NCBI GenBank assembly: GCA_001791325.1
Contig: MGEK01000039.1
Coordinates: 1,175-65,174, forward strand
Direction: 5' to 3'
Length of the DNA: 64,000 bases
Origin: Candidatus Uhrbacteria bacterium RIFCSPLOWO2_01_FULL_47_25
Lineage (GTDB): Bacteria > Patescibacteriota > Patescibacteriia > GWA2-46-9
Every line of letters begins with the position of its first letter. Positions within the stretch are counted from its first letter, which is position 1. The translations under genes were made by a program, and so were the position numbers. The notes under the pieces were generated by a model. The model did not search any database, was not told the DNA's origin, and worked only from the letters and a program-made list of their open reading frames with translations. Positions 17,668-61,546 of this stretch are shown here, one piece after another.

Positions 17668-17669
17668 AG

Positions 17670-21451: not shown

Positions 21452-21458
21452 AGGTTTG

Positions 21459-22580: not shown

Positions 22581-22626
22581 TGTAAAAACAAGTTCTTTCC
22601 TTAATTCGGGAATAAGGAAAATTATA

Positions 22627-22884
22627 TTAAGCGCCCTTCTCAGCAAGTCTTTTTATTACTGCTTTGTCAATAACATCCCTCACTACGGAGTGTATTTTTT
22701 TCCCGCCATCTTCAGTGAACAATGCTTCGACTTTGGGGAACCATGGCTTGTCTTCGCACATTTTTCTTGCATCACCAGACTCCCATCCCAAAAAATTATT
22801 AAATGCCGCTAGCTCACCATCAGTTAATTGATTAAGAGCCATGTTCGCAGCAGCCTCCAACTGCGGTGGTTGTTCTCTGTTCAT
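22627..22884 (-). CDS. hypothetical protein (cassette ORF)
   Basis: 85-aa ORF bounded by attC-like repeats on both sides. Confidence 0.4.
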   Translation of the reverse strand: MNREQPPQLEAAANMALNQLTDGELAAFNNFLGWESGDARKMCEDKPWFPKVEALFTEDGGKKIHSVVRDVIDKAVIKRLAEKGA

Positions 22885-22974
22885 AGGTTTGTATGATTAA
22901 AATTTATAAGTGTCTTTTGTATAAATAGCTTAATATAATTTTCGTTAAAATTCAATAGAACTTGTTTTTATTTC

Positions 22975-23330
22975 ACCTAAGGTCCGCGGCATATCCCTGC
23001 AGTGACGCGAGCCCCGCCCTACGGGGCGAGTGGCATTGCGGATATGCCGCTGTTATGCGATGTGCGCCGCGCGCACGCCTGCCCGCCGAAGTATGGGGTG
23101 TTTGAATTCAGCATCTTAGTGAATAAGGAACGAAGGCGGGAGCAGAACAGCGGGAACCGCGGACCTTATGCAAAATGCACGGCGCATTTTGCATAACGTT
23201 TCGGCATATCTGATGTTTGCCGTAGCGTAGCGAAGGCAAATATGGGTGAATAAATTTTGCATTCCTTAGCATTATTATAGCGCAAAATTTATGAACCAGA
23301 TATGCCGTGTTATGCGATGCTGCAAAAATA
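22975..23330. repeat. attC-like modular palindromic repeat, copy C (long form)
   Basis: AAGGTCCGCGG...GCTGTTATGCGATGTGCGCCGCGCGCAC...CAGAACAGCGGGAACCGCGGACCTTATGCAAAATGCACGGCGCATTTTGCATAACGTTTCGGCATATCTGATGTTTGCCG...CAAATATGGGTG...CCAGATATGCCGTGTTATGCGATGC. The outer stem is the covariant GGTCCGCGG/CCGCGGACC. Confidence 0.65.
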
Positions 23331-23336
23331 TTTTAT

Positions 23337-24110
23337 TTATTTGTAAAGATAACCTACTCCTAGAATCATTGATTGTCCAAATTTTTTCTTATCTTTATTA
23401 TCGACAAACGTTAGCAACGGTACCCCCTTCTTTTTACACTCCTCATGTTGATAAATGTTTTGACCCAAAATTATTTTTTTCCACGCTTTATTTACTTCCT
23501 CGTATGCGATAATGTCGTGAAATGCGGCCAGCCCATTTTTATCCAAAAAATAATTATAGTTTTTCCAATCATTTAATACCGACTTACATGTATGATCTCC
23601 ATCAATAAATAAAAAATCCACCTTCCTATTGCCCAAATACTCTTTTAGGTCTTCTCGTGCTTTTTTAGAGGTAGACTTCCTTCTAATATGCAAATAGTTA
23701 TTTTTTAGATAAAAATGCCTAAGTTTATTAATCGTGTCTTCATATGTATAGAACTGTTTTTCATATTTAGATCCCGTTATATAAGGATCAATAGTGATGA
23801 AGGTTGTTCCCGAATTACCAAGAGCTGCAGATAATAGGTAAATAAAGCCACCACGTGCCGATCCTATTTCTAAAATAATTTTGGGTCTTCTTCTTCTTAT
23901 TTTTTCTAAGGTGTGAACAATCTCAAGCGGGGTTTGCCCCACGTCTGGACACTCAAAATTTGGACAATCAATTCTTAGTTTTTCTGTAATGTATTTTATT
24001 CTTTTGTTCATAATTAAATATTTTTGCAGTTTCACATAACGTCCGGGTATCATGCGCTCGTACTCGTATGGCGCATATACCCTGTTAGGCGATGTAAATA
24101 TTTTGCTCAA
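23337..24110 (-). CDS. class I SAM-dependent methyltransferase (TylF/MycF-like Methyltransf_24-type family)
   Basis: Motif I ILEIGSARGG and LFIDGDHT. The track ORF begins with TTG and overlaps attC-like copy D, so the true start is probably an internal ATG (MIPGRY or MNKRIK). Confidence 0.6.
   Translation of the reverse strand: MSKIFTSPNRVYAPYEYERMIPGRYVKLQKYLIMNKRIKYITEKLRIDCPNFECPDVGQTPLEIVHTLEKIRRRRPKIILEIGSARGGFIYLLSAALGNSGTTFITIDPYITGSKYEKQFYTYEDTINKLRHFYLKNNYLHIRRKSTSKKAREDLKEYLGNRKVDFLFIDGDHTCKSVLNDWKNYNYFLDKNGLAAFHDIIAYEEVNKAWKKIILGQNIYQHEECKKKGVPLLTFVDNKDKKKFGQSMILGVGYLYK
24030..24100. repeat. attC-like repeat, copy D (minimal ~70-bp form)
   Basis: CACATAACG-TCCGGGTATCATGCGC-loop-GCGCATATACCC-TGTTAGGCGATGTA. 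Confidence 0.55.
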
Positions 24111-24177
24111 TGAGATAAAAAATGAGAGTTGGGCGAGAGGGTTGGGTTTCCTCTCGCGCCCGTGAGCTGATTGTACA

Positions 24178-24411
24178 CTACGCAGATTGATCGAGGCGAC
24201 GCAAGCTCTTCACGGTAACGCCATGGGAGACCGTTTCGCCATCCCAGACGATCGGTACCTCCCAAGGATCGTAGAGACATTTCGGGCCTCCGAATGCTGC
24301 TTGCACCGTCCCGATTTTCTTCGCGTCGACGTGCTGAACTCGAAGCCCCGCAGGAAAATCATCGTCGATTTGTGCCATGAGTGACTCCTTACTGTCTGTG
24401 GTGGTGCCCAA
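24178..24411 (-). CDS. hypothetical protein (visibly GC-richer cassette ORF)
   Basis: 77-aa ORF whose composition differs from the AT-rich neighbours; flanked by attC-like repeats. Confidence 0.35.
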   Translation of the reverse strand: MGTTTDSKESLMAQIDDDFPAGLRVQHVDAKKIGTVQAAFGGPKCLYDPWEVPIVWDGETVSHGVTVKSLRRLDQSA

Positions 24412-24439
24412 CTCTCATTTTTTATCAATATCAATGGAC

Positions 24440-24745
24440 AAAATATTTATTTCGCCTAACGGCTCGCGGCTATGCGGAGTCCTGAAGGAATTGTATCACA
24501 ATTCCTGAAGGATTACGTATAGCCGCTGTTAGGCGATGTGCGCCGCGCGCACAAGCATAACAGCGGGAACCGCGAGCCGTTATGCAAAATGCGCGGCGCA
24601 TTTTGCCTAACGTTCGCGCATATCTGATGTTTGCGGCTGGTATAATATAACGCCGATAGGCGTTTTACCAGCCGCAAATATGGGTGGAGGCTTGGCGTCA
24701 GCCAAGCCGTAGCCAGATATGCGCTGTTATATGATGTAACAATAC
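24440..24745. repeat. attC-like modular palindromic repeat, copy E (long form)
   Basis: CGCCTAACGGCTCGCGG-hairpin-GCTGTTAGGCGATGTGCGCCGCGCGCAC-AAGCATAACAGCGGGAACCGCGAGCCGTTATGCAAAATGCGCGGCGCATTTTGCCTAACGTTCGCGCATATCTGATGTTTGCGGCTGG...CCAGCCGCAAATATGGGTG...CCAGATATGCGCTGTTATATGATGTA. Confidence 0.65.
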
Positions 24746-24793
24746 ATTCTTAACTCCGACCGAAGAGAGGAGTTATGGAAATCAGGGTAATTT

Positions 24794-25288
24794 TTAATCA
24801 AAAAATTCGCAACGTTTATTGTACAGTAGCTCATTAACCTCAACCATAATTGCTTTTAACTCCGCAAAAAGTGCAAGGATGGGATGACCGTCGGAAACCT
24901 CGTAATGAGGGTAACCACTGGCAGGTGTTATTAGTGTGAGGCTTTTTGCGGCTTCCTGTATTTGTTTGTGAAGAGCATCGGCCCTGTCAGCTAGTTGATT
25001 GTATCTTTCTCCTTTTTCTTTTTGCTCTGCCTCCAAAGCGTCTATATCAACCTTTGGAATGAGGCGAGCTATTTTAACTTGCTCCACCTCCGCATATGTG
25101 TGCTTGCCTCTAACTTCTTTTAATTCTTCTGGTGTTGTGTTTTGATGACCACGCCTTCTGCTAGGTTCAAGCGCATAAATTAGATCACCTGCTGTCCCGA
25201 TCCAGTCATTCCAAAGGTGGCCTGAAAATTGTTTCCGTTTGAATGGTTCGTAATATTCTGGTGGCGGTTTAAGGTCTTCTGTAGACAT
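24794..25288 (-). CDS. hypothetical protein (cassette ORF)
   Basis: 164 aa, no family recognised; bounded by repeats. Confidence 0.45.
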   Translation of the reverse strand: MSTEDLKPPPEYYEPFKRKQFSGHLWNDWIGTAGDLIYALEPSRRRGHQNTTPEELKEVRGKHTYAEVEQVKIARLIPKVDIDALEAEQKEKGERYNQLADRADALHKQIQEAAKSLTLITPASGYPHYEVSDGHPILALFAELKAIMVEVNELLYNKRCEFFD

Positions 25289-25354
25289 ATTTTTTGATTA
25301 CAATAAAATTGCCCTGATTTCCAGCCGCCGCGTCAGCGGCGGAAAGAATGTATT

Positions 25355-25460
25355 GTTATTTCATATAACGTTCGCATATATCTGATGTTGCGACTGAAAG
25401 GAGCGATATGGACAAAACGAAGCGGAGCCAGATATACGCTTGTTGTGCGATGTTAGCGAG
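25355..25460. repeat. attC-like repeat, copy F (partial: 3' modules only)
   Basis: CATATAACGTTCGCATATATCTGATGTTGCG...GAGCCAGATATACGCTTGTTGTGCGATGTTAG. Confidence 0.5.
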
Positions 25461-25463
25461 CAT

Positions 25464-25745
25464 TCATCGATAGACGCACGGATAGCACCGACTCGTTTCC
25501 GTATTGCAGGAGTGCGACACTTTTTCTCCCGGAATGAATTTTGCCCCCGTAAAAGAGGCACACCAGCAGTCATCATCTGATTGACACACCGTGTTTTCAT
25601 TAGTTTCTGAAATTTCCACATTCACTGCCTCGGGCTGAGGCTGTACGAATTGAAATCTAAGAAAAAGTGCCGCTCCGATTGCTACCACAATCAGAATCAC
25701 TATTCCTAACGCCGTTTTAATTATCATAGTGTTTATATAATGCAA
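25464..25745 (-). CDS. hypothetical small Cys-rich membrane-anchored/secreted protein (cassette ORF)
   Basis: N-terminal hydrophobic anchor followed by a Cys-rich C-terminal domain (CQSDDDCWC...CNTETSRCYPC). Confidence 0.4.
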   Translation of the reverse strand: MHYINTMIIKTALGIVILIVVAIGAALFLRFQFVQPQPEAVNVEISETNENTVCQSDDDCWCASFTGAKFIPGEKVSHSCNTETSRCYPCVYR

Positions 25746-25784
25746 AACCTTTTTAAATCAGCAGAACAAGCTCGCCAATTTCGT

Positions 25785-26075
25785 ACAAGGTCCGCGGCAT
25801 ATCCTTGCAGTGACGCGAGAGCGCGTACGCTCGAGCGGCATTGCGGATATGCCGCTGTTATGCGATGTGCGCCGCGCGCACGAGCAGAACAGCGGGAACC
25901 GCGGACCTTATGCAAAATGCGCGGCGCATTTTGCATAACGTATCGGGATAAGCGAAGTTTTTACGAAGTGAAACGAAGTAAAAATTTGGGTGAAGGGCAA
26001 ATGCAACTCATTAATGTAAGTAATAAATCGCATTTGCCCTGAACCGCTTATCCCGTGTTAGGCGATGAATTTTTG
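25785..26075. repeat. attC-like modular palindromic repeat, copy G
   Basis: CAAGGTCCGCGG...GCTGTTATGCGATGTGCGCCGCGCGCACGAGCAGAACAGCGGGAACCGCGGACCTTATGCAAAATGCGCGGCGCATTTTGCATAACGTATCGGGATAAGCG...CGCTTATCCCGTGTTAGGCGATGAA. Confidence 0.6.
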
Positions 26076-26081
26076 AAACTA

Positions 26082-26390
26082 TTAGACGGGTAATTTTTTA
26101 ATATCGTTGTGCGGATGTAGATTGATACGAATTGCATCAACTATATCAATTTTACTCTCGTCGATACCACCGACATCTGGAAGGCTGCTTAATTCATGTT
26201 CTATATCTGTTTGTGTCAATTCGTCCTTTTCTAATTTTTTTAAAAGACGCTTTTTTGCTTGTTCCGCCACGCCCAAAGTAATGGATAGTCTATGCTCTAA
26301 TTTTGGAGGCGGAAGTTCTCTCAATATTTTGTCTAAAATTGGCGTGGCGGAAGCAGCCTGCTCCCTTCCTTCGTGTCCCATATTTTCCAT
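26082..26390 (-). CDS. hypothetical protein (integrase-proximal cassette ORF)
   Basis: 102 aa; first minus-strand ORF next to the divergently transcribed recombinase. Confidence 0.4.
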   Translation of the reverse strand: MENMGHEGREQAASATPILDKILRELPPPKLEHRLSITLGVAEQAKKRLLKKLEKDELTQTDIEHELSSLPDVGGIDESKIDIVDAIRINLHPHNDIKKLPV

Positions 26391-26538
26391 ATGATTTATG
26401 TTAGAAATTAGTTAATAGTTTCAAAAATTTTTCGCCTAACTCGTTTATATGCGACGTGTTTTCGTATATGATACACAATATTGCTTAATGAACGAATATC
26501 GTTTATAATGACAATATGTCATTATAATATCACTAAAA
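26391..26538. promoter_or_regulatory. divergent intergenic region between first cassette and recombinase (candidate attI / cassette promoter region)
   Basis: AT-rich. Contains GCCTAACTCG and CGTGTT boxes resembling the repeat cores, plus -10-like TATAAT/TATGAT hexamers on both strands. Confidence 0.3.
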
Positions 26539-27354
26539 ATGATAGATGCATATTTAAAAAGAACGGAAGACGAATTGAGATTGCGCAATTACAGCCCCAA
26601 GACTATAAAAAGCTACCTAGCCTGCCTCGCTGGTTACCTGCGCGCGAAGAAGAGCAATTTAGAATCCATTGACACTGATTTTATCAAGCGGTTTTTGTTG
26701 AGTAAAAAGGACGCGGGAAAATCCCCACGAACGATCAATCAGAGCTTGCAAGCAATTAATTTCTTCTGTCGCAATGTTTTAAAAAGTCATTGCGATATAG
26801 ATATTAAATTCGCCAAAACCCCTAGCAAGTTGCCGATAGTATTATCGCGCGATGAGATAAAGTTGATCATTGATTCCATTAGCAACGAGAAACATTGTTT
26901 AATGATCGCACTGGCTTATGCTGGTGGATTGCGGGTAAGCGAGATCATCAATCTAAGAATTAAAGATTTGAATATAAACGAGCTGACGATCCACATTAAA
27001 GGCGCCAAGGGGAATCGCGACCGTCTTACTATATTATCTGATAAGTATAAAAATAGGCTTGAAAAAATCATTATCGGCGGGAACCCCAATGATTATGTTT
27101 TCGCGAGCGAACGCGGCGGTAAACTAACAGAGCGCACGGCCCAAAAGATTTTTGAAAATGCGCGGCGAAAAGCGAATATAACCAAAGACGCGACGTTTCA
27201 CTCCTTGCGGCACAGTTTTGCCACCCATTTATTGGAGAACGGCGTGGATGTGCGCTATGTGCAGGAATTATTGGGGCATCAAAATATCAGAACGACCCAG
27301 CTTTACACGCAAGTCACGAATCCACAGCTTAAAAATATCAAGAGTCCGCTATAA
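26539..27354 (+). CDS. tyrosine site-specific recombinase (Xer-like; no IntI-specific insertion)
   Basis: Catalytic residues are present: R in LAYAGGLRVSE, K in KGAKGNRDR, HxxR in HSLRHSFATHLL, H in LLGH, and the Y nucleophile in TTQLYTQV. The spacing between the catalytic K and the HxxR box is ~64 aa, so the ~35-aa IntI-specific insertion is absent. Confidence 0.85.
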   Translation: MIDAYLKRTEDELRLRNYSPKTIKSYLACLAGYLRAKKSNLESIDTDFIKRFLLSKKDAGKSPRTINQSLQAINFFCRNVLKSHCDIDIKFAKTPSKLPIVLSRDEIKLIIDSISNEKHCLMIALAYAGGLRVSEIINLRIKDLNINELTIHIKGAKGNRDRLTILSDKYKNRLEKIIIGGNPNDYVFASERGGKLTERTAQKIFENARRKANITKDATFHSLRHSFATHLLENGVDVRYVQELLGHQNIRTTQLYTQVTNPQLKNIKSPL

Positions 27355-38656: not shown

Positions 38657-40024
38657 ATGACCTTAAGAGCGAGGCGAATAGTTTATTCGCTCTTTATCGC
38701 CGCCTTTATAGTTACTGCGCCGCTAGTTATTATTTACACGCAGGGCTATCGCTATAACCTGAAGCATCAACGACTTGAGCCAACGGGCACCCTGGTATTG
38801 TCAACTATACCAAAGGGGGCGACAATCTCGCTGAATGGTCAAGTCATAAAATTTTTAACTCCCAAAACTTTGCAGGCTGTGCTGCCGGGCACGTATACAA
38901 TACGCCTAAGCAAAGATAGTTATAAAACCTGGGAGAAACGCTTGAAAGTCAAAGCTGGCGAAGCTATCTTTGTAAGCAATGTCCGCTTATGGCGCGAGAC
39001 AATGCCAAAAAGACTCTCTCAAGCCATCTATCAAATTTTTTCTCCAAATCCAGACACCACCGCGATTCTTCTTACTACCTGGAGCGCTAACAAAGAGCAA
39101 CTCCTGCTCTTTGATAAATTATCAGGCAAACCGCCAACGGTGATCGCCGAAAGGCCAATGCGTAATCCCTCCGATCAAATCATCTGGTCAGCGCAAGCCA
39201 CCAGAGCTCTTGTCGCAGGGCCTGACGAAACTGCTATAGTAGAGCTTAACCAAAACCCCTCCTGGCAATCTCTTTCCAGTTTTGTACCAAAAACGATCAG
39301 CGATTTTCGTTGGGATCCTGAATACGATGATTTACTTTATGGAAGCGACGGGGCTAGTGTCTATCGCCTTGATTTATCCTCTAAAAAAATTACCCCCCTC
39401 GTCCCTCTTACTAACGTTAAACAGAGCAAACAAACATTGACGGGCTACTGGATAGAAAATAATACCCTCTATGAACTGATTCAACGCGATGATGATCATT
39501 CCATTTTGCGCTCAACGCCGCTCCTCACCACAAATTCAGGGCGAGAGATGATCTTGCCGACGAACTACCCCTACAAACTGCTTGACCAAAAAGATGACTT
39601 AATCGCTCTTATTGACTCGGCTAAGACCATGTCTCTTTGGCGGCTAGCTGGAGAATCCCTGCTGCCGGTCTTCAGCGCGCCCAACGTCAAACAAGCTATT
39701 TTTCTCAAAACTACCGGCGATTTGCTATATTCATCACCGTTTGAATTATGGACTTATAGTCCAAAAACAGGCGCTCAAACCCTCCTCACCCGTATCGCCG
39801 CTGAAGTGGACCAGGCGGCTTGGTTCCCTGATGGTTCACATGTAATATTTGCGTCTAACCACGCTGTCTTTTTTCTGGAGAGAGACGAACGCGATATTAG
39901 AAATCAATGGATGATGATGCCGTTTCAAGATCTTGTAGGATATGCTGTAAGTCAAGACGGTAAGGAGATGTACTTTGCCGGGACTATCGGTTCAGATTCC
40001 GGCCTCTGGCGCCTTGATTTATGA
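38657..40024 (+). CDS. hypothetical membrane-anchored protein with PEGA-like domain and beta-propeller-like C-region
   Basis: N-terminal TM; the PEGA-type segment (LSTIPKGATISLNGQ...TPKTL..LPGTYTIRLSKDSYKTWE) followed by WD/TolB-like repeats. Confidence 0.5.
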   Translation: MTLRARRIVYSLFIAAFIVTAPLVIIYTQGYRYNLKHQRLEPTGTLVLSTIPKGATISLNGQVIKFLTPKTLQAVLPGTYTIRLSKDSYKTWEKRLKVKAGEAIFVSNVRLWRETMPKRLSQAIYQIFSPNPDTTAILLTTWSANKEQLLLFDKLSGKPPTVIAERPMRNPSDQIIWSAQATRALVAGPDETAIVELNQNPSWQSLSSFVPKTISDFRWDPEYDDLLYGSDGASVYRLDLSSKKITPLVPLTNVKQSKQTLTGYWIENNTLYELIQRDDDHSILRSTPLLTTNSGREMILPTNYPYKLLDQKDDLIALIDSAKTMSLWRLAGESLLPVFSAPNVKQAIFLKTTGDLLYSSPFELWTYSPKTGAQTLLTRIAAEVDQAAWFPDGSHVIFASNHAVFFLERDERDIRNQWMMMPFQDLVGYAVSQDGKEMYFAGTIGSDSGLWRLDL

Positions 40025-42243: not shown

Positions 42244-42285
42244 AGCTCTAAAATTCAGAAGATCAGAATCAACGATTTTCTATCC

Positions 42286-42325
42286 AACCAAAAGTATCAT
42301 ACTATATAGTATGATACTTTTGGTT
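42286..42325. repeat. 40-bp palindrome AACCAAAAGTATCATACTATATAGTATGATACTTTTGGTT (core shared with 63955-63982)
   Basis: Perfect inverted repeat between the rfbB stop and the rfbC start; a candidate operator/terminator motif family. Confidence 0.45.
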
Positions 42326-42379
42326 AAAATGTCACAAGAGGATAGCCATCTCATAAAATCATAAACTATCAATCATCAA

Positions 42380-43387
42380 CTATACAAGATGCGCGTTGAT
42401 GCCCTTAGCGCGGGCTTTGATTCTATTCACCCAGTCCTGATTGTCGCGATACCACTGAATAGTTTCTTTAACCGCCTCGGAAAAATGATATCTCGGCTTC
42501 CAGCCAAGTTCTTTGGCAATTTTACTCGCGTCAATGGCATAACGTCGATCATGCCCCGGACGGTCTGTCACAAAAGTAATAAGAGATTCCGGCTTGCCCA
42601 AAGCCTTCAAAATTAATCGGGCAATTTCTAAATTAGGCCTCTCAAAGTGCCCGCCGATATTATAAACCTCTCCGGCCTTGCCTTGGCGTAAAACTAAGTC
42701 AATCGCTTCACAATGATCGCGAACATACAGCCAATCACGCACATTCTTGCCATCACCATAGAGCGGCAGAGGCTGGTCGTTCATCGCTCTATCAATAAAA
42801 AATGGTATAAGTTTTTCGGGATATTGATACGGACCATAGTTGTTAGAACAGTGAGTGACGACAACATCCAAGCCAAAAGTTTTGAAAAAAGCGCGACACA
42901 AAAGATCTCCGCCGGCTTTAGCCGCGGCATAGGGCACATTTGGCTGGAATGGCCAATTCTCGTGGAATTGCCGAGCGTCTTCCAGCTCTAATGAGCCATA
43001 TACTTCATCAGTAGAAATTTGCACGTGCCTTTTGATTGTCCCGAGCTGACGTTCTGCATCCAATAAAGTTTGCACGCCAAGCGTATTGGTCAGAACAAAA
43101 TCACGCGAGCCGATATGAATACTTCGGTCAACATGGGTCTCGGCCGCAAAGTTGACTACGACGTCAATTCCTTGCTTAAGTACTTTTTCAACAGCCTCTG
43201 AGTCGGCGATGTCGCCCTTGACGAACGAATATCGCGCGTTACCAGCAAGATCCTTAAGATTCTCAAGATTGCCAGCATACGTAAGTTTATCAAAATTCAC
43301 TACCTCGTCCTCCAGATAGTTTTCAATCAGGTAATGAATAAAATTGGAGCCAATGAACCCCGCCCCACCGGCAACGAGTATTTTCAT
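42380..43387 (-). CDS. rfbB: dTDP-glucose 4,6-dehydratase
   Basis: MKILVAGGAGFIGSNF, the YxxxK SDR motif, 335 aa from the MKIL start. The track ORF has a 14-codon upstream extension. Confidence 0.9.
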   Translation of the reverse strand: MKILVAGGAGFIGSNFIHYLIENYLEDEVVNFDKLTYAGNLENLKDLAGNARYSFVKGDIADSEAVEKVLKQGIDVVVNFAAETHVDRSIHIGSRDFVLTNTLGVQTLLDAERQLGTIKRHVQISTDEVYGSLELEDARQFHENWPFQPNVPYAAAKAGGDLLCRAFFKTFGLDVVVTHCSNNYGPYQYPEKLIPFFIDRAMNDQPLPLYGDGKNVRDWLYVRDHCEAIDLVLRQGKAGEVYNIGGHFERPNLEIARLILKALGKPESLITFVTDRPGHDRRYAIDASKIAKELGWKPRYHFSEAVKETIQWYRDNQDWVNRIKARAKGINAHLV

Positions 43388-43549
43388 AAAATCAGCATAA
43401 CGGAAAATTTCACTTAAAACAAGATTCATAACGAACGGAGAGTGAAACCGAAAATAATGAAACGCGTTTAAAAAATTATATCGTGAAAAAGGAAAACGGC
43501 CGCACTTCGCGTACGGCCGTCGTCCCTCCTTATTCTTATCGCCACCTCC

Positions 43550-46500
43550 TTACCACTGCTCGCACCAGGTACGAGCGTTCTGAACCATTTGTAAGTATGG
43601 GCTTACCTCTAGCCATGTCCACTCCGATGAAACGTAAGCCCCTTGCCACATTCTAAAGCCTCGGTCCACTGCGTGAGGCATCATGAAGAATTTCCGTCCG
43701 TCCGGTGAACAAAGTGCCGTTATACCACCCGGACTTCCGTTGGGGTTGAACGGGTATTCTTCCGTTGGCTCACCGTCTGGCCCCACGTAAAAGATAGGCG
43801 CCAGGTCGTTCGTGAGCACAAATTGCAACACTTCTGGGTCGGGGAAGGTGAGGCGACCTTCTTTGTGGGCGACCCAGGCTCCGAAGATAGAGCCTTCCAT
43901 GCCGCGGAGCATGATCGCTGGGCTTTTCCGGAAACCCAATGTTACGAAGCGGCATTCAAATCGGCCCGAGACATTTTCCGTAAACCACGGCAGTTTTTCC
44001 TCGGGGAAAAGATGACCGAGAGTGAGTCCGAGACTGGCGTCGACTTGCGCACCATTGCAGACGCCGAAAGTGAAAGTATCCGGTCGCGAACAAAATTCCA
44101 GATACTGATCGGCTAGCGCGGGTCCTTTCATGACGGCCGCCCAGCCCTGACCAGCGCCAAAAACATCACGGAACGACCAGCCCCCCGGAAGAACCCTTCC
44201 GCGGAATCCATGGAGAGTGATTTTTCCACGTTCGAGGTCGTCTGTGGCCACATCAACCGGATCAAAACCGCCATCATAGAAAGCGGCGGCCATTTCCGGT
44301 TCTCCTCGCGTCCCTTCTTCGCGAAGCATGGCGATGCGAATTTTGCTTTTGGCGGTCAGGATGGCGGTCGGTGTCGGTTTGGGAGTAAACGTAAGTTTGT
44401 ATGGAGGCGAGGTGAGCATCTTGCGCCGCGCCCTACTTTCAGCGTCAACGCAGGCGGAATTTGCCTTCATCTTGTCGATGATGCTGCTGAGCTCCTCCCA
44501 TTTTGCCCGAAGATCGACCATCTGCTCATCGAGCACGATTGAGCCATTTACCGATACCTTGATCTCCGGGGTTGACAAGGAGTGACCGATGGTCTGGGCC
44601 GTCACGCCATGACGATGAAGAACTTCCTGAACTGCGTCTATCCTGACGCATTCCACGATGGCGCCCGGTTCTTGTGCAAACAACGTGGCCCGCGCTTCGT
44701 GCTGACTCCGGAAGTCGAGATCAAGTCCAAGATTTGCCGCGAAGGCCATTTCGAGCGCTGTCACCAGGGAGCCATCACCGGCCGTGTCATGATAGGCGGA
44801 AATGAGACCCAAGTCGACAAGTTCTTGCGCGGCCTCAAACAGGTGCTTGAGATCGGCCGCTTTGACGTCCGGACACTCGTCGCCGATTTGACCATGCCCC
44901 TGAGCTAAAGCTGATCCGCCCAAGCGGTGTTGATGAGGATTACACTCCAGCCAGAGCAGCTCTCTCCCAGCCTCTTTCAGGTCGGGAGTGACTTTGACGG
45001 TAATGTCCGGGACCGGTGCGTTGGTTGAAATAACGATTTCCCGCGGCGCCCTAACTTCTTGAAGCTGACCGTCGGGGTTTACGCGGAGGTCGAACATGGC
45101 GCTTGAATCCTTGCCTCCATCCGGTTCGCAGCCCTGAAATTCGGCGAGGAATTGGCGTAATGCCTGCATAGCCTCTTCAAGCCAAATGCCTTCGCCAGGG
45201 AGTTTGGTGGCCAACATGGCGTTAAGCGAACACTTGACGTCTCCGAGGCCGATGATTTTCACGCCACCCAGGTTGAGAATGGCTTCGGCTGCCGCTAGGC
45301 GGACGCTCGCTCCTGGTGAGATGAGACTAGAGAGCGGTTGTTCCCCAATACTATGGGCCGTGCCACGCAGGCTGAAATGGCTAGCGGCCTTGATTGAGCA
45401 GTCGGCTATCGGCGCTTGGTACGGACCGACATCCTGTTGTTGGGCTACCAGGCCACCCACACTGCGGTCGCCTTCAATGGTCGTCCACCGCTTGCTGCAA
45501 ACGGAAAGAAGACCGAAAACGAGATCAAGACTTTCCCGAATTGTTTCTTCGGGCGGCATAGAAAGCGGTTGGCGCCTCTCTTTCTTCGGTGTGAGAACGA
45601 AAGTCTTTTGTCGCTCGGTGCCGAGCATAGGTTCAAGCGGCGCGTTGACGATGACCTGTCCGCGACTTTTCATGACGAGCCGTCCGTCGCCGGTCACCGT
45701 TCCGATCACGGCGCAAGGCAAATGCTCGCGTTGGCAGATGGCCTGGATGAGCGGCCAATCTGTGGGCCAGGCAAGCATCACAGCCGATTCCTGGCTTTCA
45801 TTACCTACTCTTTCAACATCACTCAAGGTATCGTCTCCCCACGGCACCTGGTCAAGGTCGAACACCGCTCCGGCCGGATACACTATTTCTGGTGGACCGT
45901 TGCTTAAGCCGCCCGCCCCCAAATCGCTAGACTTTTGTACAGGATTGCGCCGGCCAAGCCAGAAGCACGTTCGGAAGAAGTTACCGAAACAGCGTCGCAT
46001 CAAAGCGTCGCCGCGCTGTACCGAACGAAGAAGGATGGCCATATCGACATCATAGCCGATGGCCGATGACGAAGCGGTTCCTCCGCCAATGCCGAGACGG
46101 AAACGCGGACCGCCAACGTAACCAACGAGCATGCCCGCTTGTGGTTCAACTGGCGCGACATCTTCATGGTTCATGACACCGGCGCCAACCGTGAAAAGGA
46201 TCGGCTTTTCCCACCCCCAAGCTTGTCCGTCTGGGGTCACAACAAAGAGGGTGCGAACGAAGCCATAGGTGAGCGCTTCGCCCGAAGCATTGCCGTAACG
46301 ACGGGTGCCATGGCTGGCTCCCAGCATTATTTGGAGAGGCGTTGGATATCCTGGTCGGGACGACCATCCATCCTTTTCCCACGGTTGCAGGTGGCCCGGG
46401 ATACAGAGATTGCCAGTACAATATCCTGCCCCCGCTACTCCCAAATCTGCGCCACGTCGGGTGACATAATTGTCCGCCTGTCGTCCACCGACGCCGGTAT

Positions 46501-47458
46501 CCGCGCCAGCTGGGGGGGAGATGCGGCAGGGGTGGTTGTGGGTTTCTGCCGTCAACGTGTCATCAAGGTCGCGCGTAACAATAACCCATGAGCTTGGCTC
46601 GCCCGGTTTTTCCGGAATGAGCATTTCGGTCAAGCCACCCCGAATGGCAGAACTATCACAGTCGAAGGCCACGGTTGAGTTGCTTCGATGAAGTATTAGC
46701 GGATCCTTGATGATTTGCATCAGGGTTTGTAGAAGTAGCCGGCCGTTGCGTGTTCTCTTACCTTTGTAGTAACCGTGCCTTGAGTGTTCCGAAATCAATT
46801 GAGCCACGATCATTAAAAAGGCGTCGGTTGGATTCTCGTCGCGCTCCAACGACAGTTCAAATGCCAGGGCTTCGTCGTACTCGTCCCACTTGATGCCCCA
46901 GTCTCTTTCGAACTCGCGTAGTGCTTCTACACCACGTTCGCGCACCGCATACACTTTGGTGGCTTGTCGAACTAAGCCATGGTCGAAGCTCTTGAGCGGT
47001 TCACGATACGGCATTTCCAACATGGGATCGTACAAGGCGGCGGCAAAACGTTCGGCTGTCTCCGGATCAAGTGCTCGGTTCAAGGCGAACCGATGCGAGA
47101 GCTCAACGCGATGAATTTTGCCAAGTCCGCAGCGCTGACAGATCCTGACGGCTTGACTTGAGTAGGGCGTATCGAAGTTTAGTCTGGGACCAAACTCGAA
47201 TACCCAAGGGAAGCTGGACAGCCAGCTCGTATCCGGCGTTCGAGCAATTTCTCTAAACAGACGGACGGGCAGTTTAGTGAAAGCGAGTACTTCCTCTGTT
47301 GTCAACGCCTCCGTCGCTCCAATGTTGAAACATGACTCGGTGTGTATTACTTCCTCCTGGAGGCCTGCAGCTTCAAGGGCTAGGGTCAGGACTTGTACGG
47401 GGAACTCAGCGGGATAGGCGTAAAGATGATGCAGGGTGGTTATTGTCGAGATAGCCAT
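43550..47458 (-). CDS. purL: phosphoribosylformylglycinamidine synthase, large single-chain type (FGAM synthase)
   Basis: 1302 aa with AIRS-like repeats (AETHNHP core, DLGAGGLSN, GNESQES) and a C-terminal glutaminase domain (GVCNGAQ). Visibly GC-richer than the flanks. Confidence 0.9.
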   Translation of the reverse strand: MAISTITTLHHLYAYPAEFPVQVLTLALEAAGLQEEVIHTESCFNIGATEALTTEEVLAFTKLPVRLFREIARTPDTSWLSSFPWVFEFGPRLNFDTPYSSQAVRICQRCGLGKIHRVELSHRFALNRALDPETAERFAAALYDPMLEMPYREPLKSFDHGLVRQATKVYAVRERGVEALREFERDWGIKWDEYDEALAFELSLERDENPTDAFLMIVAQLISEHSRHGYYKGKRTRNGRLLLQTLMQIIKDPLILHRSNSTVAFDCDSSAIRGGLTEMLIPEKPGEPSSWVIVTRDLDDTLTAETHNHPCRISPPAGADTGVGGRQADNYVTRRGADLGVAGAGYCTGNLCIPGHLQPWEKDGWSSRPGYPTPLQIMLGASHGTRRYGNASGEALTYGFVRTLFVVTPDGQAWGWEKPILFTVGAGVMNHEDVAPVEPQAGMLVGYVGGPRFRLGIGGGTASSSAIGYDVDMAILLRSVQRGDALMRRCFGNFFRTCFWLGRRNPVQKSSDLGAGGLSNGPPEIVYPAGAVFDLDQVPWGDDTLSDVERVGNESQESAVMLAWPTDWPLIQAICQREHLPCAVIGTVTGDGRLVMKSRGQVIVNAPLEPMLGTERQKTFVLTPKKERRQPLSMPPEETIRESLDLVFGLLSVCSKRWTTIEGDRSVGGLVAQQQDVGPYQAPIADCSIKAASHFSLRGTAHSIGEQPLSSLISPGASVRLAAAEAILNLGGVKIIGLGDVKCSLNAMLATKLPGEGIWLEEAMQALRQFLAEFQGCEPDGGKDSSAMFDLRVNPDGQLQEVRAPREIVISTNAPVPDITVKVTPDLKEAGRELLWLECNPHQHRLGGSALAQGHGQIGDECPDVKAADLKHLFEAAQELVDLGLISAYHDTAGDGSLVTALEMAFAANLGLDLDFRSQHEARATLFAQEPGAIVECVRIDAVQEVLHRHGVTAQTIGHSLSTPEIKVSVNGSIVLDEQMVDLRAKWEELSSIIDKMKANSACVDAESRARRKMLTSPPYKLTFTPKPTPTAILTAKSKIRIAMLREEGTRGEPEMAAAFYDGGFDPVDVATDDLERGKITLHGFRGRVLPGGWSFRDVFGAGQGWAAVMKGPALADQYLEFCSRPDTFTFGVCNGAQVDASLGLTLGHLFPEEKLPWFTENVSGRFECRFVTLGFRKSPAIMLRGMEGSIFGAWVAHKEGRLTFPDPEVLQFVLTNDLAPIFYVGPDGEPTEEYPFNPNGSPGGITALCSPDGRKFFMMPHAVDRGFRMWQGAYVSSEWTWLEVSPYLQMVQNARTWCEQW

Positions 47459-47583
47459 GTTGTCTGTCTCCTCTCTTTCGTTTTGGTTTCTGGTTTACGT
47501 TATAAAAATGTTAAGGCGCGAGCCTTGTCTACTGGGTTTTCCGGTTTACAGCACGCCTACTTTACTATTTTTTAAAGAAAATT

Positions 47584-47660
47584 ACAACCTCAAATCCAAA
47601 ATAGCTTATCTAACACTTTCCAAAATGCCCCATAGTAAAAATGTTGAACCCACCTCTCAA
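47584..47660. repeat. direct repeat R1 (~75% identical to 48257-48332), promoter-like region upstream of purL
   Basis: ACAACCTCAAATCCAAAATAGCTTATCTAACACTTTCCAAAATGCCCCATAGTAAAAATGTTGAACCCACC aligns with ACAACCCCAAATCTAAAATAGTTTATCCAGCACCTTCCCAAATACCCGATGGTGAAAATGTTGAATCCACT. Confidence 0.5.
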
Positions 47661-47682
47661 TACATCTCTCGTCTCTATATCA

Positions 47683-47704
47683 CCATACTAGTATACTAGT
47701 ATGG
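47683..47704. repeat. 22-bp perfect palindrome CCATACTAGTATACTAGTATGG upstream of purL
   Basis: Related to the CATACTATATAGTATG palindrome family at 42286 and 63955. Confidence 0.4.
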
Positions 47705-47843
47705 TAGTAGATAATGCAACCAGCTCTAAATATCAAACAGGACGACATTAACCAGCCAAGCGTATAATTTCAACGCTCAACGGCAACGTCGTCCTATTAC
47801 TCCCCTCCCATCTCCTCCACGTTATGGGAAAAACTCTCCCATC

Positions 47844-48149
47844 TTACCCGACGAGGCCGACCGCCGCCCGGCTTGGCCCAGCGCACGGAATCCGAAGCTC
47901 GACCAAACGATTGGCCAAACCATCAGCCAATGGTTTCTCTGGGCCAACCACCACGAGATCGGGCCCCAGACTAGCTGCCAGTGCTATCAAACCGACTACG
48001 TCAGATGCCTCGACTGGATAGAGCACGGCATTCCGCGCGATACCGGGGTTGCCAGGAGCCCAGTAGAGTTCTCCACAATTCGACGAACTCACAATCGCTA
48101 GCGCCATCGCAGCCTCACGTCCACCGCCACCAATTCCTAACACTTTCAT
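47844..48149 (-). pseudogene. purD: truncated phosphoribosylamine--glycine ligase (purD) N-terminal fragment
   Basis: The 101 aa MKVLGIGGGGREAAMALA...APGNPG...DLVVVGPEKPLADGLANRL...PCAGPS match the PurD N-domain. A stop follows where ~320 aa of ATP-grasp domain should be, and the fragment is GC-rich. Confidence 0.65.
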
Positions 48150-48256
48150 TAGTCTCTCCTTTTTTCTTTTGCTGTATGTGGTTGTGACTGTTCATTCCAA
48201 ACTGAAAGAAATACTAAATCAGAACGGCAATACTTTATCACCCCGACACGATATTG

Positions 48257-48332
48257 ACAACCCCAAATCTAAAATAGTTTATCCAGCACCTTCCCAAATA
48301 CCCGATGGTGAAAATGTTGAATCCACTAAATT
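48257..48332. repeat. direct repeat R2 (partner of 47584-47660), upstream of the purD remnant
   Basis: See R1; each copy lies ~100 nt upstream of an RBS+ATG (AAGGAGAG-ATG for the purD remnant, GAGGAGACAGA-ATG for purL). Confidence 0.5.
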
Positions 48333-48334
48333 GT

Positions 48335-55294: not shown

Positions 55295-56132
55295 GGTAAT
55301 TAGTGTGTTTCGTAACCACGAGGTGTTAGAATACCCTTATGGTTACTGGGCAAAAGAATGTTTTCAACTGTGCGGCCAACTTTTTGAGGGGCAGAAAGTG
55401 CATATTCTGCGGTTCTTTTCACGTCTGTAAAACTCAGCGCGGCTATGTGAAGTGCCGGCACGCGGCTTGTGGAAAACAGAAGTCGCTCAAACGCCTGCGC
55501 AAAGAGATTGGCATTATCACCGGCTTCTACCAACAGCAGCCGGCCTATCGCGTGGCGAGCGATCTCGGCCTTGATTATCAGGTGGTGAGCCGCGTCTATC
55601 AACGCTTGCGCGAAGCGATCTATCATGTGGCTGAATTGGAAGCAGGCAAGCTCAAGGGAGAGATTGAGATTGATGAGGCTTACTTCGGCGGCAGAAGGAA
55701 GGGGAAGCGCGGCAGAGGCGCCGTCGGGAAAAGCATTGTTTTCGGCCTTTTGGAGCGCGATGGACGAGTTTATACCAAAGTTGTGGAACGGGTAACGGCC
55801 GATGAATTGATGGCCCATATTAGGAAGCATACGAGAAAGGGGTCGGTCTATTACACGGATACCTTTCGTAGCTACAACTCCTTGAAGCGCTGGGGCAAAC
55901 ACCACCGCTTGAACCACGGCAAGGTCTTTGCCCACAAAGGCCAGAACCACATCAACGGCATTGAGGGATTTTGGAGTTATGCCAAGCATATCCTGTACAA
56001 CTACCGAGGAGTTTCCAAATACCATTTTCCGATGTATCTTAAAGAGGTGGAATATCGTTTTAACCATAGACATGATAATTTATTCAAACTGTTTATGAAC
56101 ATCTATTTTGGTTACGTTTCGCACTAATTACC
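55295..56132 (+). mobile_element. IS1595-family insertion sequence with 24-bp terminal inverted repeats and an 8-bp target-site duplication
   Basis: IRL GGTAATTAGTGTGTTTCGTAACCA (55295-55318) and IRR (reverse complement of 56109-56132) GGTAATTAGTGCGAAACGTAACCA match 20/24. The direct repeat AAGAATAA sits at 55287-55294 and again at 56133-56140. A single transposase ORF lies inside. Confidence 0.8.
55339..56127 (+). CDS. IS1595-family (ISXO2-like) DDE transposase
   Basis: N-terminal Cys-rich zinc-finger region, then EIDEAYFGG...GRG...SVYYTDTFRSYNSL...HHRLNHG...NHINGIEGFWSYAKH, typical of ISXO2-like transposases. Confidence 0.8.
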   Translation: MVTGQKNVFNCAANFLRGRKCIFCGSFHVCKTQRGYVKCRHAACGKQKSLKRLRKEIGIITGFYQQQPAYRVASDLGLDYQVVSRVYQRLREAIYHVAELEAGKLKGEIEIDEAYFGGRRKGKRGRGAVGKSIVFGLLERDGRVYTKVVERVTADELMAHIRKHTRKGSVYYTDTFRSYNSLKRWGKHHRLNHGKVFAHKGQNHINGIEGFWSYAKHILYNYRGVSKYHFPMYLKEVEYRFNHRHDNLFKLFMNIYFGYVSH

Positions 56133-61409: not shown

Positions 61410-61410
61410 A

Positions 61411-61543
61411 CCCCGTTAGAAGTCCTGGGAAGATAAAATTCTTAAGAGAATTTTATCTTCTGCGGTAATTATAGTATTCAATTGGTTAATGAATTGTATC
61501 ATGGATAAAAGATTGAACATTGTGCTGAATCAGACTTCTAACG
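61411..61543 (-). promoter_or_regulatory. structured leader of gtrA-like gene: 14-bp long-range inverted repeat that includes the 12 nt preceding the start codon
   Basis: CCCCGTTAGAAGTC (61411-61424, directly upstream of the ATG on the coding strand) is the perfect reverse complement of GACTTCTAACGGGG (61530-61543, directly after the peptidase stop codon). The perfect hairpin GATAAAATTCT-TAAG-AGAATTTTATC lies inside. The same 15-mer CATACCCCGTTAGAA also precedes the start of ORF 58467..58814. Confidence 0.4.
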
Positions 61544-61546
61544 GGG

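What the first reader, a model, noticed from the sequence alone, without database searches (positions are those of the whole stretch)
43550..48332. Isolated, GC-richer single-chain FGAM synthase (purL) with a degraded purD stub and a duplicated promoter-like repeat
This window shows no other de novo purine genes. The only two purine genes present are a 1302-aa large-type PurL and a 101-aa PurD N-terminal fragment ending in a stop (47844..48149). Both are visibly more GC-rich than the surrounding genome. Both are preceded by ~75-bp direct repeats that are ~75% identical (47584-47660 and 48257-48332), each positioned ~100 nt upstream of an RBS+ATG.

The pattern suggests a horizontally acquired purine-biosynthesis fragment undergoing decay, consistent with a reduced genome that salvages purines. 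Alternatively, purL may be retained for a non-canonical role.
Basis: partly seen in the sequence, partly recalled or inferred. Interest (0 to 1): 0.55.

Follow-up and report, generated by a model that had tools for sequence, protein, structure and literature searches.

The report
Acquired purL island with purD relic
A tiny-genome groundwater bacterium (Candidatus Uhrbacteria) carries a 4.9-kb foreign DNA insert holding a dead stub of one purine-synthesis gene and an intact but very unusual copy of another, which is a clear but fairly ordinary example of gene gain and partial decay.

Summary
The region contains an intact 1302-aa single-chain PurL, a 101-aa PurD N-domain stub, and two 77-nt direct repeats (81% identical) upstream of them. 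Both genes are GC-richer and the least host-like in codon use of 51 ORFs.

New evidence shows that the block at 43390-48334 is a lineage-specific insertion. Relatives keep the same gene order but have HIT directly next to rmlB (18-nt spacer), or carry other small GC-rich inserts at that junction. Twelve contigs read here from public assemblies of several samples share the arrangement, so it is not an assembly artefact.

purD is a true relic. The ATP-grasp part is deleted with no trace.

purL is not a pseudogene: the ORF is intact and the Cys/His catalytic residues are kept. It is a singleton long branch, though. The best relative among billions of proteins is 46% identical, and it differs at 40 of 241 near-invariant family positions (typical homologue: 2). 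These include the triad Glu, the ATP loop and residues that couple the two active sites. Its nearest neighbours are other Patescibacteria PurLs, not phages.

Each repeat carries a -35 hexamer and is followed by an identical -10 hexamer, so the repeats look like duplicated promoter modules. They match no RNA family.

I could not inventory the rest of the pathway in the genome, so "working enzyme" versus "not-yet-decayed passenger" stays open.

The parts
43390..48334 (-). Lineage-specific inserted block (about 4.95 kb) between the HIT stop codon and the rmlB start
   Evidence: Relatives have HIT-18 nt-rmlB (L028/L029) or other inserts at this junction (L015/L016/L027, L017). GC and codon-usage outlier.
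43550..47458 (-). purL: intact single-chain (large-type) FGAM synthase homologue, 1302 aa, highly divergent
   Evidence: Pfam domains. NF003672 scores 937 against a cutoff of 783, but TIGR01735 scores 1059 against a cutoff of 1123. Best homologue 46% identical and 43% in the exhaustive search. 40 of 241 near-invariant columns changed.
43495..43521 (-). Intrinsic-terminator-like hairpin (11-bp stem, 7 G-C pairs) plus T-run, 29 nt after the purL stop
47459..47558 (-). purL 5' leader with AGGAG ribosome-binding site
   Evidence: Sequence. No significant fold (z = 0.14). No Rfam match.
47559..47587 (-). Promoter-like site upstream of purL: TTGTAA-17 nt-TAAAGT
   Evidence: Read. Exact match to the shared pattern, which occurs only at the two repeats in the window.
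47577..47653 (-). Direct repeat copy R1 (77 nt); its 3' end contains the -35 hexamer
47655..47843 (-). Hairpin-rich spacer after the stub: small hairpin at the stop codon, long imperfect hairpin (47736-47798), perfect 24-nt palindrome (47682-47705)
   Evidence: MFE -75.1 kcal/mol, z = -5.4 on the sense strand, for the 206-nt stretch 47655-47860 that was folded, which runs 17 nt into the stub; z = -7.0 on the other strand. Palindrome unique in the window. Such structured spacers are common in this genome.
47844..48149 (-). purD relic: 101-aa ORF equal to the GARS_N domain only; stop falls where the ATP-grasp domain should begin
48232..48260 (-). Promoter-like site upstream of the stub: TTGTCA-17 nt-TAAAGT (with TG before the -10)
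48250..48326 (-). Direct repeat copy R2 (77 nt), starting 9 nt after the HIT stop codon
48335..48763 (-). Host HIT-family gene (left flank of the insertion)
   Evidence: Pfam. Orthologues at 83%, 70% and 67% identity in relatives. Homology runs almost to the stop codon.
42380..43387 (-). Host rmlB (dTDP-glucose 4,6-dehydratase), right flank; first gene of rmlBCDA
   Evidence: Pfam. The start aligned with relatives is ATG 43387, not 43429.

Best explanation
A ~4.95-kb piece of foreign DNA was inserted exactly between the HIT gene and the rml operon in one Uhrbacteria population. That junction has also received other small GC-rich inserts in sister lineages.

The insert carries two purine-pathway genes. 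Each sits behind a paralogous upstream module: a 77-nt repeat containing a -35 hexamer, an identical TAAAGT -10 hexamer 17 nt downstream, and an A-rich leader with AGGAG.

purD lost everything after its N domain through a deletion and is a non-functional relic.

purL is a separate transcription unit with its own promoter module, RBS and intrinsic terminator, and it is kept as a full-length gene. I infer that it still makes an FGAM-synthase-type amidotransferase. The Cys nucleophile, the His, the ETHNxP His and the gate residues are all present. The glutaminase-synthetase coupling is atypical, because the triad Glu, the omega-loop Asn, the oxyanion-loop Phe, the C-loop LDF and the ATP-loop Asp are changed.

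I also infer that purL is retained because it is useful, while the co-transferred purD was redundant or useless and decayed.

Shown: the insertion, the truncation, the repeat and promoter-like anatomy, the intactness of purL, and its divergence. Inferred: expression, enzymatic activity and selection.
For: Insertion:
- Empty or alternative sites in syntenic relatives.
- Composition and codon usage.
- Not an artefact: 12 contigs from several samples and assemblers are 99.9-100% identical across the block.

purD relic:
- GARS_N only, with no residual ATP-grasp homology and only 385 nt before purL.

purL kept:
- 1302 codons with no stop, although 3.3-3.7% of possible point changes would create one.
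- Its difference from the family consensus rises from 17% at near-invariant columns to 76% at variable columns, which is a purifying-selection signature.
- GVCNG Cys, the PH His, ETHNHP, VQRGD, DRSV and the R after the triad are retained (mapped on PMC13013826).
- It passes the NF003672 equivalog cutoff.

Transcription unit:
- Promoter-like sites, AGGAG, terminator.

Timing:
- If the two repeat copies arose by duplication and drifted neutrally (0.097 substitutions per site per copy), an unconstrained purL would have collected about 13 nonsense hits (P of none = 1e-6). The 101-codon stub would stay open half the time.
Against: - No close relative exists, so dN/dS cannot be measured. All 12 contigs belong to one population.
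- The only polymorphism in purL is nonsynonymous (W1195L) at a position that is 90% or more conserved.
- purL deviates at 40 of 241 near-invariant positions, against a median of 2 and a maximum of 15 for 119 homologues. It also fails the TIGR01735 cutoff. Both fit relaxed constraint.
- The repeat clock is shaky. The stub keeps 23 of 24 near-invariant residues, fewer changes than that clock predicts for neutral DNA. The insert could therefore be young and purL simply not yet broken.
- No other pur gene lies within about 75 kb, and the rest of the genome could not be searched. A substrate supply for PurL is unproven.
Confidence: 0.5

Rival explanations
1. Passenger in decay. The whole block is useless DNA acquired recently. 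purD has already been hit by a deletion, and purL is open only because too little time has passed. Its odd residues reflect a divergent or already-relaxed donor copy.
For: - 40 of 241 near-invariant positions are changed, including the triad Glu, the ATP-loop Asp and GGRIRD->GGRQAD.
- It scores below the TIGR01735 cutoff.
- The single segregating change is nonsynonymous at a conserved Trp.
- There are no other pur genes in about 75 kb.
- CPR bacteria often lack nucleotide synthesis (PMC7304191).
- The stub is little changed, which suggests a young event.
- Composition has not drifted towards that of the host.
Against: - The 3.9-kb ORF is intact in every contig.
- The conservation gradient is retained.
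- The 17-19% divergence between the two repeat copies implies substantial time if they arose in place.
- A dedicated promoter-like module, RBS and terminator are all present.
Confidence: 0.3
2. Changed function. The PurL homologue is kept for a role outside canonical purine synthesis. Possibilities are an uncoupled or ammonia-dependent amide-to-amidine ATP-dependent amidotransferase acting on another substrate, or a non-catalytic role, as in herpesviral FGARAT homologues.
For: - The changes fall among residues that couple FGAR binding to glutaminase activation in the human enzyme: omega-loop Asn->Arg, oxyanion-loop Phe->Trp, C-loop LDF->ILL, PHPER->PHAVDR.
- All 40 derived states are unique to this protein; no homologue shares more than one.
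- The gene stands alone, with a dead purD beside it.
Against: - The core catalytic residues and the whole domain architecture are kept.
- The deviations are spread over all domains rather than concentrated at the substrate site.
- The position inside a glycan-synthesis cluster is explained by the insertion hotspot, not by functional linkage.
- There is no family of similar proteins; it is a singleton.
Confidence: 0.12
3. Vertical inheritance. purD-purL is ancestral at this site and was lost independently in the sister lineages.
For: The nearest PurL relatives include other Patescibacteria. purL is also GC-richer than its neighbours in three other loci with related purL genes.
Against: - Three different states are seen in relatives, one of them a tight 18-nt HIT-rmlB junction.
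- Codon usage is the least host-like in the window.
- The relative closest by HIT identity that could be read (83%; dS 0.57 on HIT) lacks the block.
- The purL terminal branch of 0.62 substitutions per site is far too long for that time span.
Confidence: 0.05
4. The repeats are a cis-regulatory RNA (riboswitch or leader) or a recombination site (attC-like), not promoter DNA.
For: Both copies lie in the same orientation upstream of purine genes. 10 of 12 differences are transitions. A small shared hairpin can be drawn. The window holds an integron-like array elsewhere.
Against: - No Rfam match even at E <= 10.
- Folding is no better than shuffles (z = +0.44 and -1.12).
- There are no compensatory pairs.
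- The repeats lie upstream of the -10 hexamer and would mostly not be transcribed if the predicted promoter is used.
- They have no similarity to the attC-like elements at 16-26 kb.
- They were not found anywhere else.
Confidence: 0.05

Closest known systems
Large single-chain FGAM synthase (lgPurL/FGAMS), e.g. human PFAS (PDB 9N9W) and Salmonella PurL (1T3T)
   Same: Same length and domain order: N-domain, duplicated PurM-like synthetase, triad glutaminase. Full-length alignment gives 826 bits to 9N9W and 580 bits to 1T3T. The nucleophile Cys, the His, the ETHNxP His, Q of VQRGD and the gate-3 Asp/Arg are kept.
   Different: At most 46% identity to any of billions of proteins. 40 of 241 near-invariant positions are replaced. 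The triad Glu is replaced by Asp shifted by one residue. GGRIRD->GGRQAD. The ATP-loop Asp, omega-loop Asn, oxyanion-loop Phe and C-loop LDF are changed. The Pfam linker domain is not detected. It scores below the TIGR01735 cutoff.
Patescibacteria/CPR lgPurL genes (e.g. P0006, P0010, P0013, P0016, P0071)
   Same: Closest named relatives and sister group in the NJ tree. They are also scattered singly in the genome and GC-richer than their neighbours.
   Different: Those proteins score 1420-1577 bits on TIGR01735 and deviate at 15 or fewer invariant positions. Some sit next to purB- or purM-like genes.
Herpesvirus tegument FGARAT homologues (TIGR01739)
   Same: A precedent for an FGAM-synthase homologue kept outside a purine pathway for another role.
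   Different: The window protein scores only 234 bits against a cutoff of 716 and keeps catalytic residues. No viral relative was found. It is a conceptual analogy only.
Gene relics in horizontally acquired islands (truncated co-transferred genes)
   Same: A compositionally foreign block that is absent from the syntenic site of relatives, with one gene reduced to a domain-sized stub.
   Different: There is no integrase, transposase, tRNA or flanking att-type repeat at the borders. The direct repeats are internal and sit upstream of each gene, not at the island ends.

Membership tests
lgPurL / FGAM synthase (TIGR01735, NF003672) | Single chain with N-terminal domain, linker, two PurM-like modules and a C-terminal class-I glutaminase | tested here: met
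   Pfam FGAR-AT_N, AIRS_C x2, FGAR-AT_PurM_N-like and GATase_5. The linker model PF18072 was not detected, but the region aligns.
lgPurL / FGAM synthase (TIGR01735, NF003672) | Score above the curated equivalog cutoff | tested here: inconclusive
   NF003672 scores 937.4, above its cutoff of 783 (pass). TIGR01735 scores 1058.7, below its cutoff of 1123.05 (fail). Three related purL proteins (two Patescibacteria-labelled, one unlabelled) score 1420-1577.
lgPurL / FGAM synthase (TIGR01735, NF003672) | Glutaminase triad Cys-His-Glu (GVCNG ... PHPE) | tested here: not met
   Cys1134 and His1262 are present. PHPER is replaced by PHAVDR, so there is no Glu at His+2 and an Asp sits at His+3.
lgPurL / FGAM synthase (TIGR01735, NF003672) | Synthetase-site and gate residues (ETHNxP His, VQRGD Gln, DRSV Asp, Arg after the triad) | tested here: met
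   All retained in the alignment. Roles are taken from PMC13013826.
lgPurL / FGAM synthase (TIGR01735, NF003672) | Near-invariant ATP-loop Asp (human D271), GGRIRD motif and coupling residues (omega-loop Asn, oxyanion-loop Phe, C-loop LDF) | tested here: not met
   D->C, GGRQAD, N->R, F->W and LDF->ILL.
lgPurL / FGAM synthase (TIGR01735, NF003672) | FGAR-to-FGAM activity, and the other pur genes present in the genome | not testable with these tools
   The genome is absent from the searchable genome collection. Only about 75 kb was inventoried.
PurD / GAR synthetase (TIGR00877) | N domain plus ATP-grasp (PF01071) plus C domain (PF02843), about 420 aa | tested here: not met
   Only GARS_N, residues 1-97. 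TIGR00877 scores 73.6 bits against a cutoff of 288 and covers positions 1-100 of 425. No downstream remnant. The His of the GGREHA motif is replaced by Ala.
Horizontally acquired genomic island | Absent from the syntenic site in close relatives | tested here: met
   L028/L029 have HIT-18 nt-rmlB. L015/L016/L027 and L017 carry different inserts.
Horizontally acquired genomic island | Atypical composition and codon usage | tested here: met
   GC3 z = +3.0 and codon usage z = -2.8. The control shows that purL is GC-rich elsewhere too.
Horizontally acquired genomic island | Mobility gene or att-type repeats at the borders | tested here: not met
   No integrase or transposase within the block. The nearest are IS1595 at 55.3 kb and a recombinase at 26.5 kb. 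The repeats are internal.
Known cis-regulatory RNA (Rfam) / riboswitch | Match to a covariance model, or a stable conserved fold | tested here: not met
   No hit at gathering threshold; only chance-level hits at E <= 10. Fold z = +0.44 and -1.12. No compensatory changes.
Integron cassette / attC | Imperfect palindrome with RYYYAAC...GTTRRRY cores at the 3' end of each cassette, next to an integrase | tested here: not met
   The repeats are 5' of the genes, do not fold and are unrelated to the attC-like family at 16-26 kb.

The most novel reading that the evidence does not exclude
This organism has no de novo purine pathway, and the lone, fast-evolved PurL homologue is kept by selection for something else. 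It could be an uncoupled (ammonia-using) or re-targeted ATP-dependent amide-to-amidine amidotransferase, or a non-catalytic protein. That would make it a bacterial counterpart of the viral FGARAT story.
Probability: 0.12. Interest if true: 0.7.

Novelty: new member of a known kind. Interest (0 to 1): 0.35.

Why it matters
CPR/Patescibacteria are thought to depend on hosts for nucleotides, and their patchy biosynthetic genes are attributed to loss and lateral transfer. This locus is a clean, dated-by-synteny example of that process caught midway. It has a precise insertion point, one gene already reduced to a domain stub, and the other kept full-length behind a duplicated promoter module.

If purL proves active, it shows how a single pathway step can be patched by transfer. 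If the genome lacks the rest of the pathway, the protein becomes a candidate for a new function of the FGAM-synthase fold.

As it stands, this is a well-documented but not surprising case.

Tried and rejected
**Regulatory RNA**
- Rfam on the whole window and, permissively, on the upstream regions gave nothing.
- The repeats do not fold better than shuffles and show no compensatory pairs.

**Repeat as coding sequence**
- Both copies are in frame within + strand ORFs. However, 13 of 25 codons differ nonsynonymously against 1 synonymous difference (translated by hand), so this was rejected.

**Repeat elsewhere**
- No copy in genome contigs.
- No copy in metagenome contigs with a 24-base pattern.
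- A 19-base pattern gave 9 hits that share nothing beyond the pattern itself.
- No copy in sibling loci or other purL loci.

**Promoter pattern**
- The TTGTNA-17-TAAAGT pattern occurs only at the two repeats.

**Other ideas rejected**
- Phage origin: no IMG/VR relative; the best phage hit is 34% identical. The spacer palindrome and hairpin are absent from viral contigs.
- Residual purD ATP-grasp sequence: none.
- Homology between the hairpin after the stub and the purL terminator (GGACGACG..GCCGT): not significant, P = 0.21.
- attC-like nature of the repeats: rejected.

**Analyses that could not be completed**
- dN/dS for purL: impossible, because all 12 contigs are 99.9-100% identical.
- Empty-site search in genome contigs with the PMT_2 neighbour: no relatives found.
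- Literature search for this genome or for Uhrbacteria purine metabolism: nothing specific.
- A first intergenic-fold scan timed out and was redone with mononucleotide shuffles.

Full report
**Source and reality of the sequence**

The PurL protein (one residue different) is annotated as hypothetical protein A3H10_03325 of Candidatus Uhrbacteria bacterium RIFCSPLOWO2_12_FULL_46_10. The 101-aa stub and the HIT protein are identical to A3H10_03330 and A3H10_03335. This is a member of the Candidate Phyla Radiation (CPR/Patescibacteria).

The same arrangement (HIT, stub, purL, rmlB) is present on all 12 public contigs that I read. They come from two NCBI assemblies plus ENA and JGI assemblies of several samples. 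Over the shared 10-20 kb they are 99.9-100% identical to the window. The locus is therefore not an assembly chimera, but all copies belong to a single population.

**The observation**

ORF 43550-47458(-) encodes 1302 aa with the domain set of a single-chain FGAM synthase. ORF 47844-48149(-) encodes 101 aa that match only the PurD N domain: GARS_N positions 1-97 of 100 and TIGR00877 positions 1-100 of 425.

Homology to PurD runs to the last residue (..RAAVGLVG against consensus ..RAAAQLEG), and the stop codon sits where the ATP-grasp domain should begin. No frame of the 385 nt before purL retains ATP-grasp similarity. The rest of purD was therefore deleted, not merely interrupted.

The direct repeats are real: 47577-47653 and 48250-48326, 77 nt at 81% identity, and only these two copies in 64 kb.

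Both genes are compositional outliers. GC3 is 0.586 and 0.549 against 0.417 +/- 0.057 for 52 other ORFs. They are also the two least host-like ORFs of 51 in synonymous codon choice.

One control tempers the GC argument. In three other loci with related purL genes, purL is also 7-9 GC points above its neighbours.

Pfam scans of the remaining window ORFs of 100 aa or more that do not lie inside a longer ORF found cell-wall, secretion, pilus and glycosylation genes and CTP synthase, but no other de novo purine gene. About 11 kb beyond the window ends also has none.

**The block is an insertion**

I searched for relatives of the flanking HIT protein and read their contigs.

- In a relative with 67% identical HIT (L028/L029), HIT is followed after 18 nt by rmlB.
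- In a relative from the same aquifer project (the ANAN16 assemblies) with 70% identical HIT (L015/L016/L027), the order 114-aa gene, HIT, rmlB, rmlC, rmlD, rmlA, murA, ctpB, L9, pyrG matches the window. Between HIT and rmlB there is only a 525-nt spacer holding a 79-aa GC-rich ORF on the opposite strand.
- In the relative closest by HIT identity that could be read (83%; dS 0.57 on HIT; L017), HIT is followed by yet another GC-rich reverse ORF.

HIT homology between the window and L017 runs almost to the stop codon. The foreign block therefore spans 43390-48334, about 4.95 kb.

The HIT|rmlB junction thus behaves as a hotspot that has taken up different GC-rich DNA in different lineages. The sibling inserts have GC 0.567 against 0.42-0.47 for the adjacent HIT. 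This supports lateral acquisition more strongly than composition alone does.

**Anatomy of the block**

Each repeat contains a -35-like hexamer at its 3' end: TTGTAA at 47582-47587 and TTGTCA at 48255-48260. After exactly 17 unrelated bases, each is followed by the same -10-like hexamer TAAAGT, at 47559-47564 and 48232-48237. I read this; the scan tool reports the purD site. The combined pattern occurs nowhere else in the window.

Leaders of about 94 nt and 76 nt follow, ending in A-rich stretches with AGGAG. The last 30 nt or so of the two leaders are also similar (P = 0.006 against shuffles; alignment).

purL ends 29 nt before a strong terminator-like hairpin with a T-run at 43495-43521.

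Between the stub and repeat R1 lies a 200-nt stretch that folds far better than shuffles (z = -5.4). It contains a long imperfect hairpin and a perfect 24-nt palindrome that is unique in the window. Hairpin-rich spacers are common in this genome, so I read this one as a terminator or stability region and not as something special.

The repeats themselves match no Rfam family. They do not fold better than shuffles and show no compensatory changes. They are not conserved as coding sequence on the other strand, and they were not found in any other locus or collection I could scan.

The simplest reading is a duplicated promoter region that gives each gene its own transcription start. Two origins remain possible: duplication in place together with the purD deletion, or a Campbell-type integration of a second fragment through a shared upstream region. 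I cannot distinguish them.

**What kind of PurL this is**

It aligns end to end with solved FGAM synthases, better with the human enzyme (9N9W, 826 bits) than with Salmonella PurL (580 bits).

Among 5.8 billion clustered proteins the best non-self hit is 46% identical. An exhaustive HMMER pass over 1.84 billion cluster representatives, using residues 103-1302, found nothing above 43%.

Several of the closest hits are labelled Patescibacteria. A neighbour-joining tree puts the protein next to a Patescibacteria clade. The placement is unstable, appearing in 7 of 30 bootstraps. The terminal branch of 0.62 substitutions per site is 5-6 times the median. Phage or plasmid-like donors are not indicated.

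In an alignment with 119 homologues, the protein differs at 40 of the 241 columns that are at least 97% conserved. A left-out homologue differs at a median of 2 and a maximum of 15. No homologue shares more than one of these 40 derived states.

I mapped these changes on the human cryo-EM study (PMC13013826).

Retained residues:
- the nucleophile Cys (GVCNG)
- the triad His
- the ETHNxP His (gate 4)
- the Gln of VQRGD
- the gate-3 Asp and Arg

Changed residues:
- PHPER becomes PHAVDR (no Glu at His+2)
- the omega-loop Asn that holds the oxyanion loop becomes Arg
- the oxyanion-loop Phe becomes Trp
- the C-loop LDF becomes ILL
- the invariant Asp of the ATP loop becomes Cys
- GGRIRD becomes GGRQAD

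The protein passes the NCBI equivalog model NF003672 but falls below the cutoff of TIGR01735, on which three related purL proteins score 400-500 bits higher.

**Decaying or maintained?**

Three points favour maintenance.

- The ORF is 1302 codons long with no stop, although 3.3-3.7% of all possible point changes would create one.
- The probability of differing from the family consensus rises smoothly from 17% at near-invariant columns to 76% at variable ones. Neutral drift would not leave that pattern.
- The gene has a complete set of expression signals.

If the two repeat copies arose by duplication in this lineage and drifted neutrally (JC distance 0.195), an unconstrained purL would by now carry about 13 nonsense mutations (P of none about 1e-6). 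The 101-codon stub would stay open half the time.

Other points weaken this case.

- That clock is uncertain. The stub has lost only 1 of 24 near-invariant residues (the His of GGREHA), fewer than the clock predicts for neutral DNA.
- The excess of changes at invariant positions is 23-fold over a typical homologue.
- The only polymorphism in purL among the 12 contigs is nonsynonymous (W1195L) at a Trp that is at least 90% conserved. The window carries the consensus Trp.
- The closest relative lacks the block and is only dS 0.57 away. Most of the 0.62-substitution branch must therefore predate the transfer, so the donor lineage itself is unsampled and divergent.

**Verdict**

Its main interpretation is half right.

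The block is horizontally acquired, and purD is a dead relic. purL is not visibly decaying. It is an intact, separately expressed and extremely divergent member of the large FGAM synthase family.

I put about 0.5 on it still being a useful FGAM-synthase-type enzyme. I put 0.3 on it being a passenger that has not yet broken, and about 0.1 on a changed function.

The decisive missing datum is the pur-gene inventory of the whole genome. I could not obtain it, because the genome is not in the searchable genome collection. About a third of CPR genomes in one survey have a complete de novo purine pathway (PMC11608272), so either outcome is plausible.

As a piece of biology this is a tidy example of gene gain and partial loss in a reduced genome, of moderate interest only.

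Outside the finding, the window contains what looks like an integron-like cassette array at 16-26.5 kb. It deserves its own examination.

Noticed in passing
window 16000-27354: Candidate integron-like cassette array. The motif TGTTAKRYGATG, which contains the canonical core GTTAGGC/GTTATGC, occurs 10 times, all on the + strand and all between 16221 and 26067 (0.05 expected). The motifs bound highly structured repeated intergenic elements of 80-360 nt whose other end carries the inverse core (..CATAACG / GCCTAAC). The ORFs there are all on the - strand, have low GC (0.30-0.43) and are mostly without Pfam hits (Fic, a methyltransferase, PEP-utiliser fragments). A divergently oriented 271-aa tyrosine recombinase at 26539-27354 scores best on 'XerA/integron integrase' (216 bits, cutoff 220) and on TIGR02249, but lacks the IntI-specific insert. 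No paper describing this was found.
   Followed up: partly
window 25789-25988, 22369-22568, 24411-24710, 18627-19026, 61410-61546, 42244-42379: Intergenic stretches that fold far better than shuffles (z = -8 to -12; up to -104 kcal/mol per 200 nt), yet there is no Rfam family at gathering threshold and no tRNA in the whole 64 kb. Most belong to the repeat family above. 61410-61546 and 42244-42379 (between rmlC and rmlB) do not.
   Followed up: partly
L015 502-1026; L017 464-967; L028 1503-1519 (relatives of the window's HIT-rmlB junction): The HIT|rmlB junction is a variable hotspot. One relative has an 18-nt spacer. Two others carry different GC-rich (0.567) small ORFs on the opposite strand (79 aa with a C-terminal hydrophobic stretch; 93 aa). 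L015 also has a 32-nt duplicate of the rmlB start (918-949) fused to a hairpin just upstream of the real start.
   Followed up: partly
L004 7378-11313, L013 10001-13906, L014 10001-13789: In three other loci with related purL genes, purL is 7-9 GC points (GC3 +7 to +15) above its neighbours. In L013 the adjacent Lyase_1 (purB-like) gene and the next ORF share the high GC3. This suggests either a gene-intrinsic bias or repeated lateral acquisition of purine genes in CPR.
   Followed up: partly
window 43875 (purL codon 1195): The only polymorphism in purL among 12 contigs is TGG (Trp, in the window; this is the family consensus) against TTG (Leu, in the NCBI RIFCSPLOWO2_12_FULL_46_10 record and four other loci). 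The database protein P0001 therefore differs from the window protein by one residue.
   Followed up: yes
window 55339-56127 (+): IS1595-family DDE transposase ORF inside the glycosyltransferase cluster. Some assemblies call a 257-aa ORF on the opposite strand instead. Three SNPs cluster here in two contigs.
   Followed up: no
window 17338-17667 and 20402-21451 (-): Two separate ORFs (109 aa and 349 aa) each carry only the PEP-utilising-enzyme mobile domain. Both lie in the low-GC cassette-like region.
   Followed up: no
window 39217-39226: One contig (L001) differs from the window at ten consecutive bases inside the PEGA-domain gene. This is a local block substitution or an assembly difference, not scattered SNPs.
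   Followed up: no
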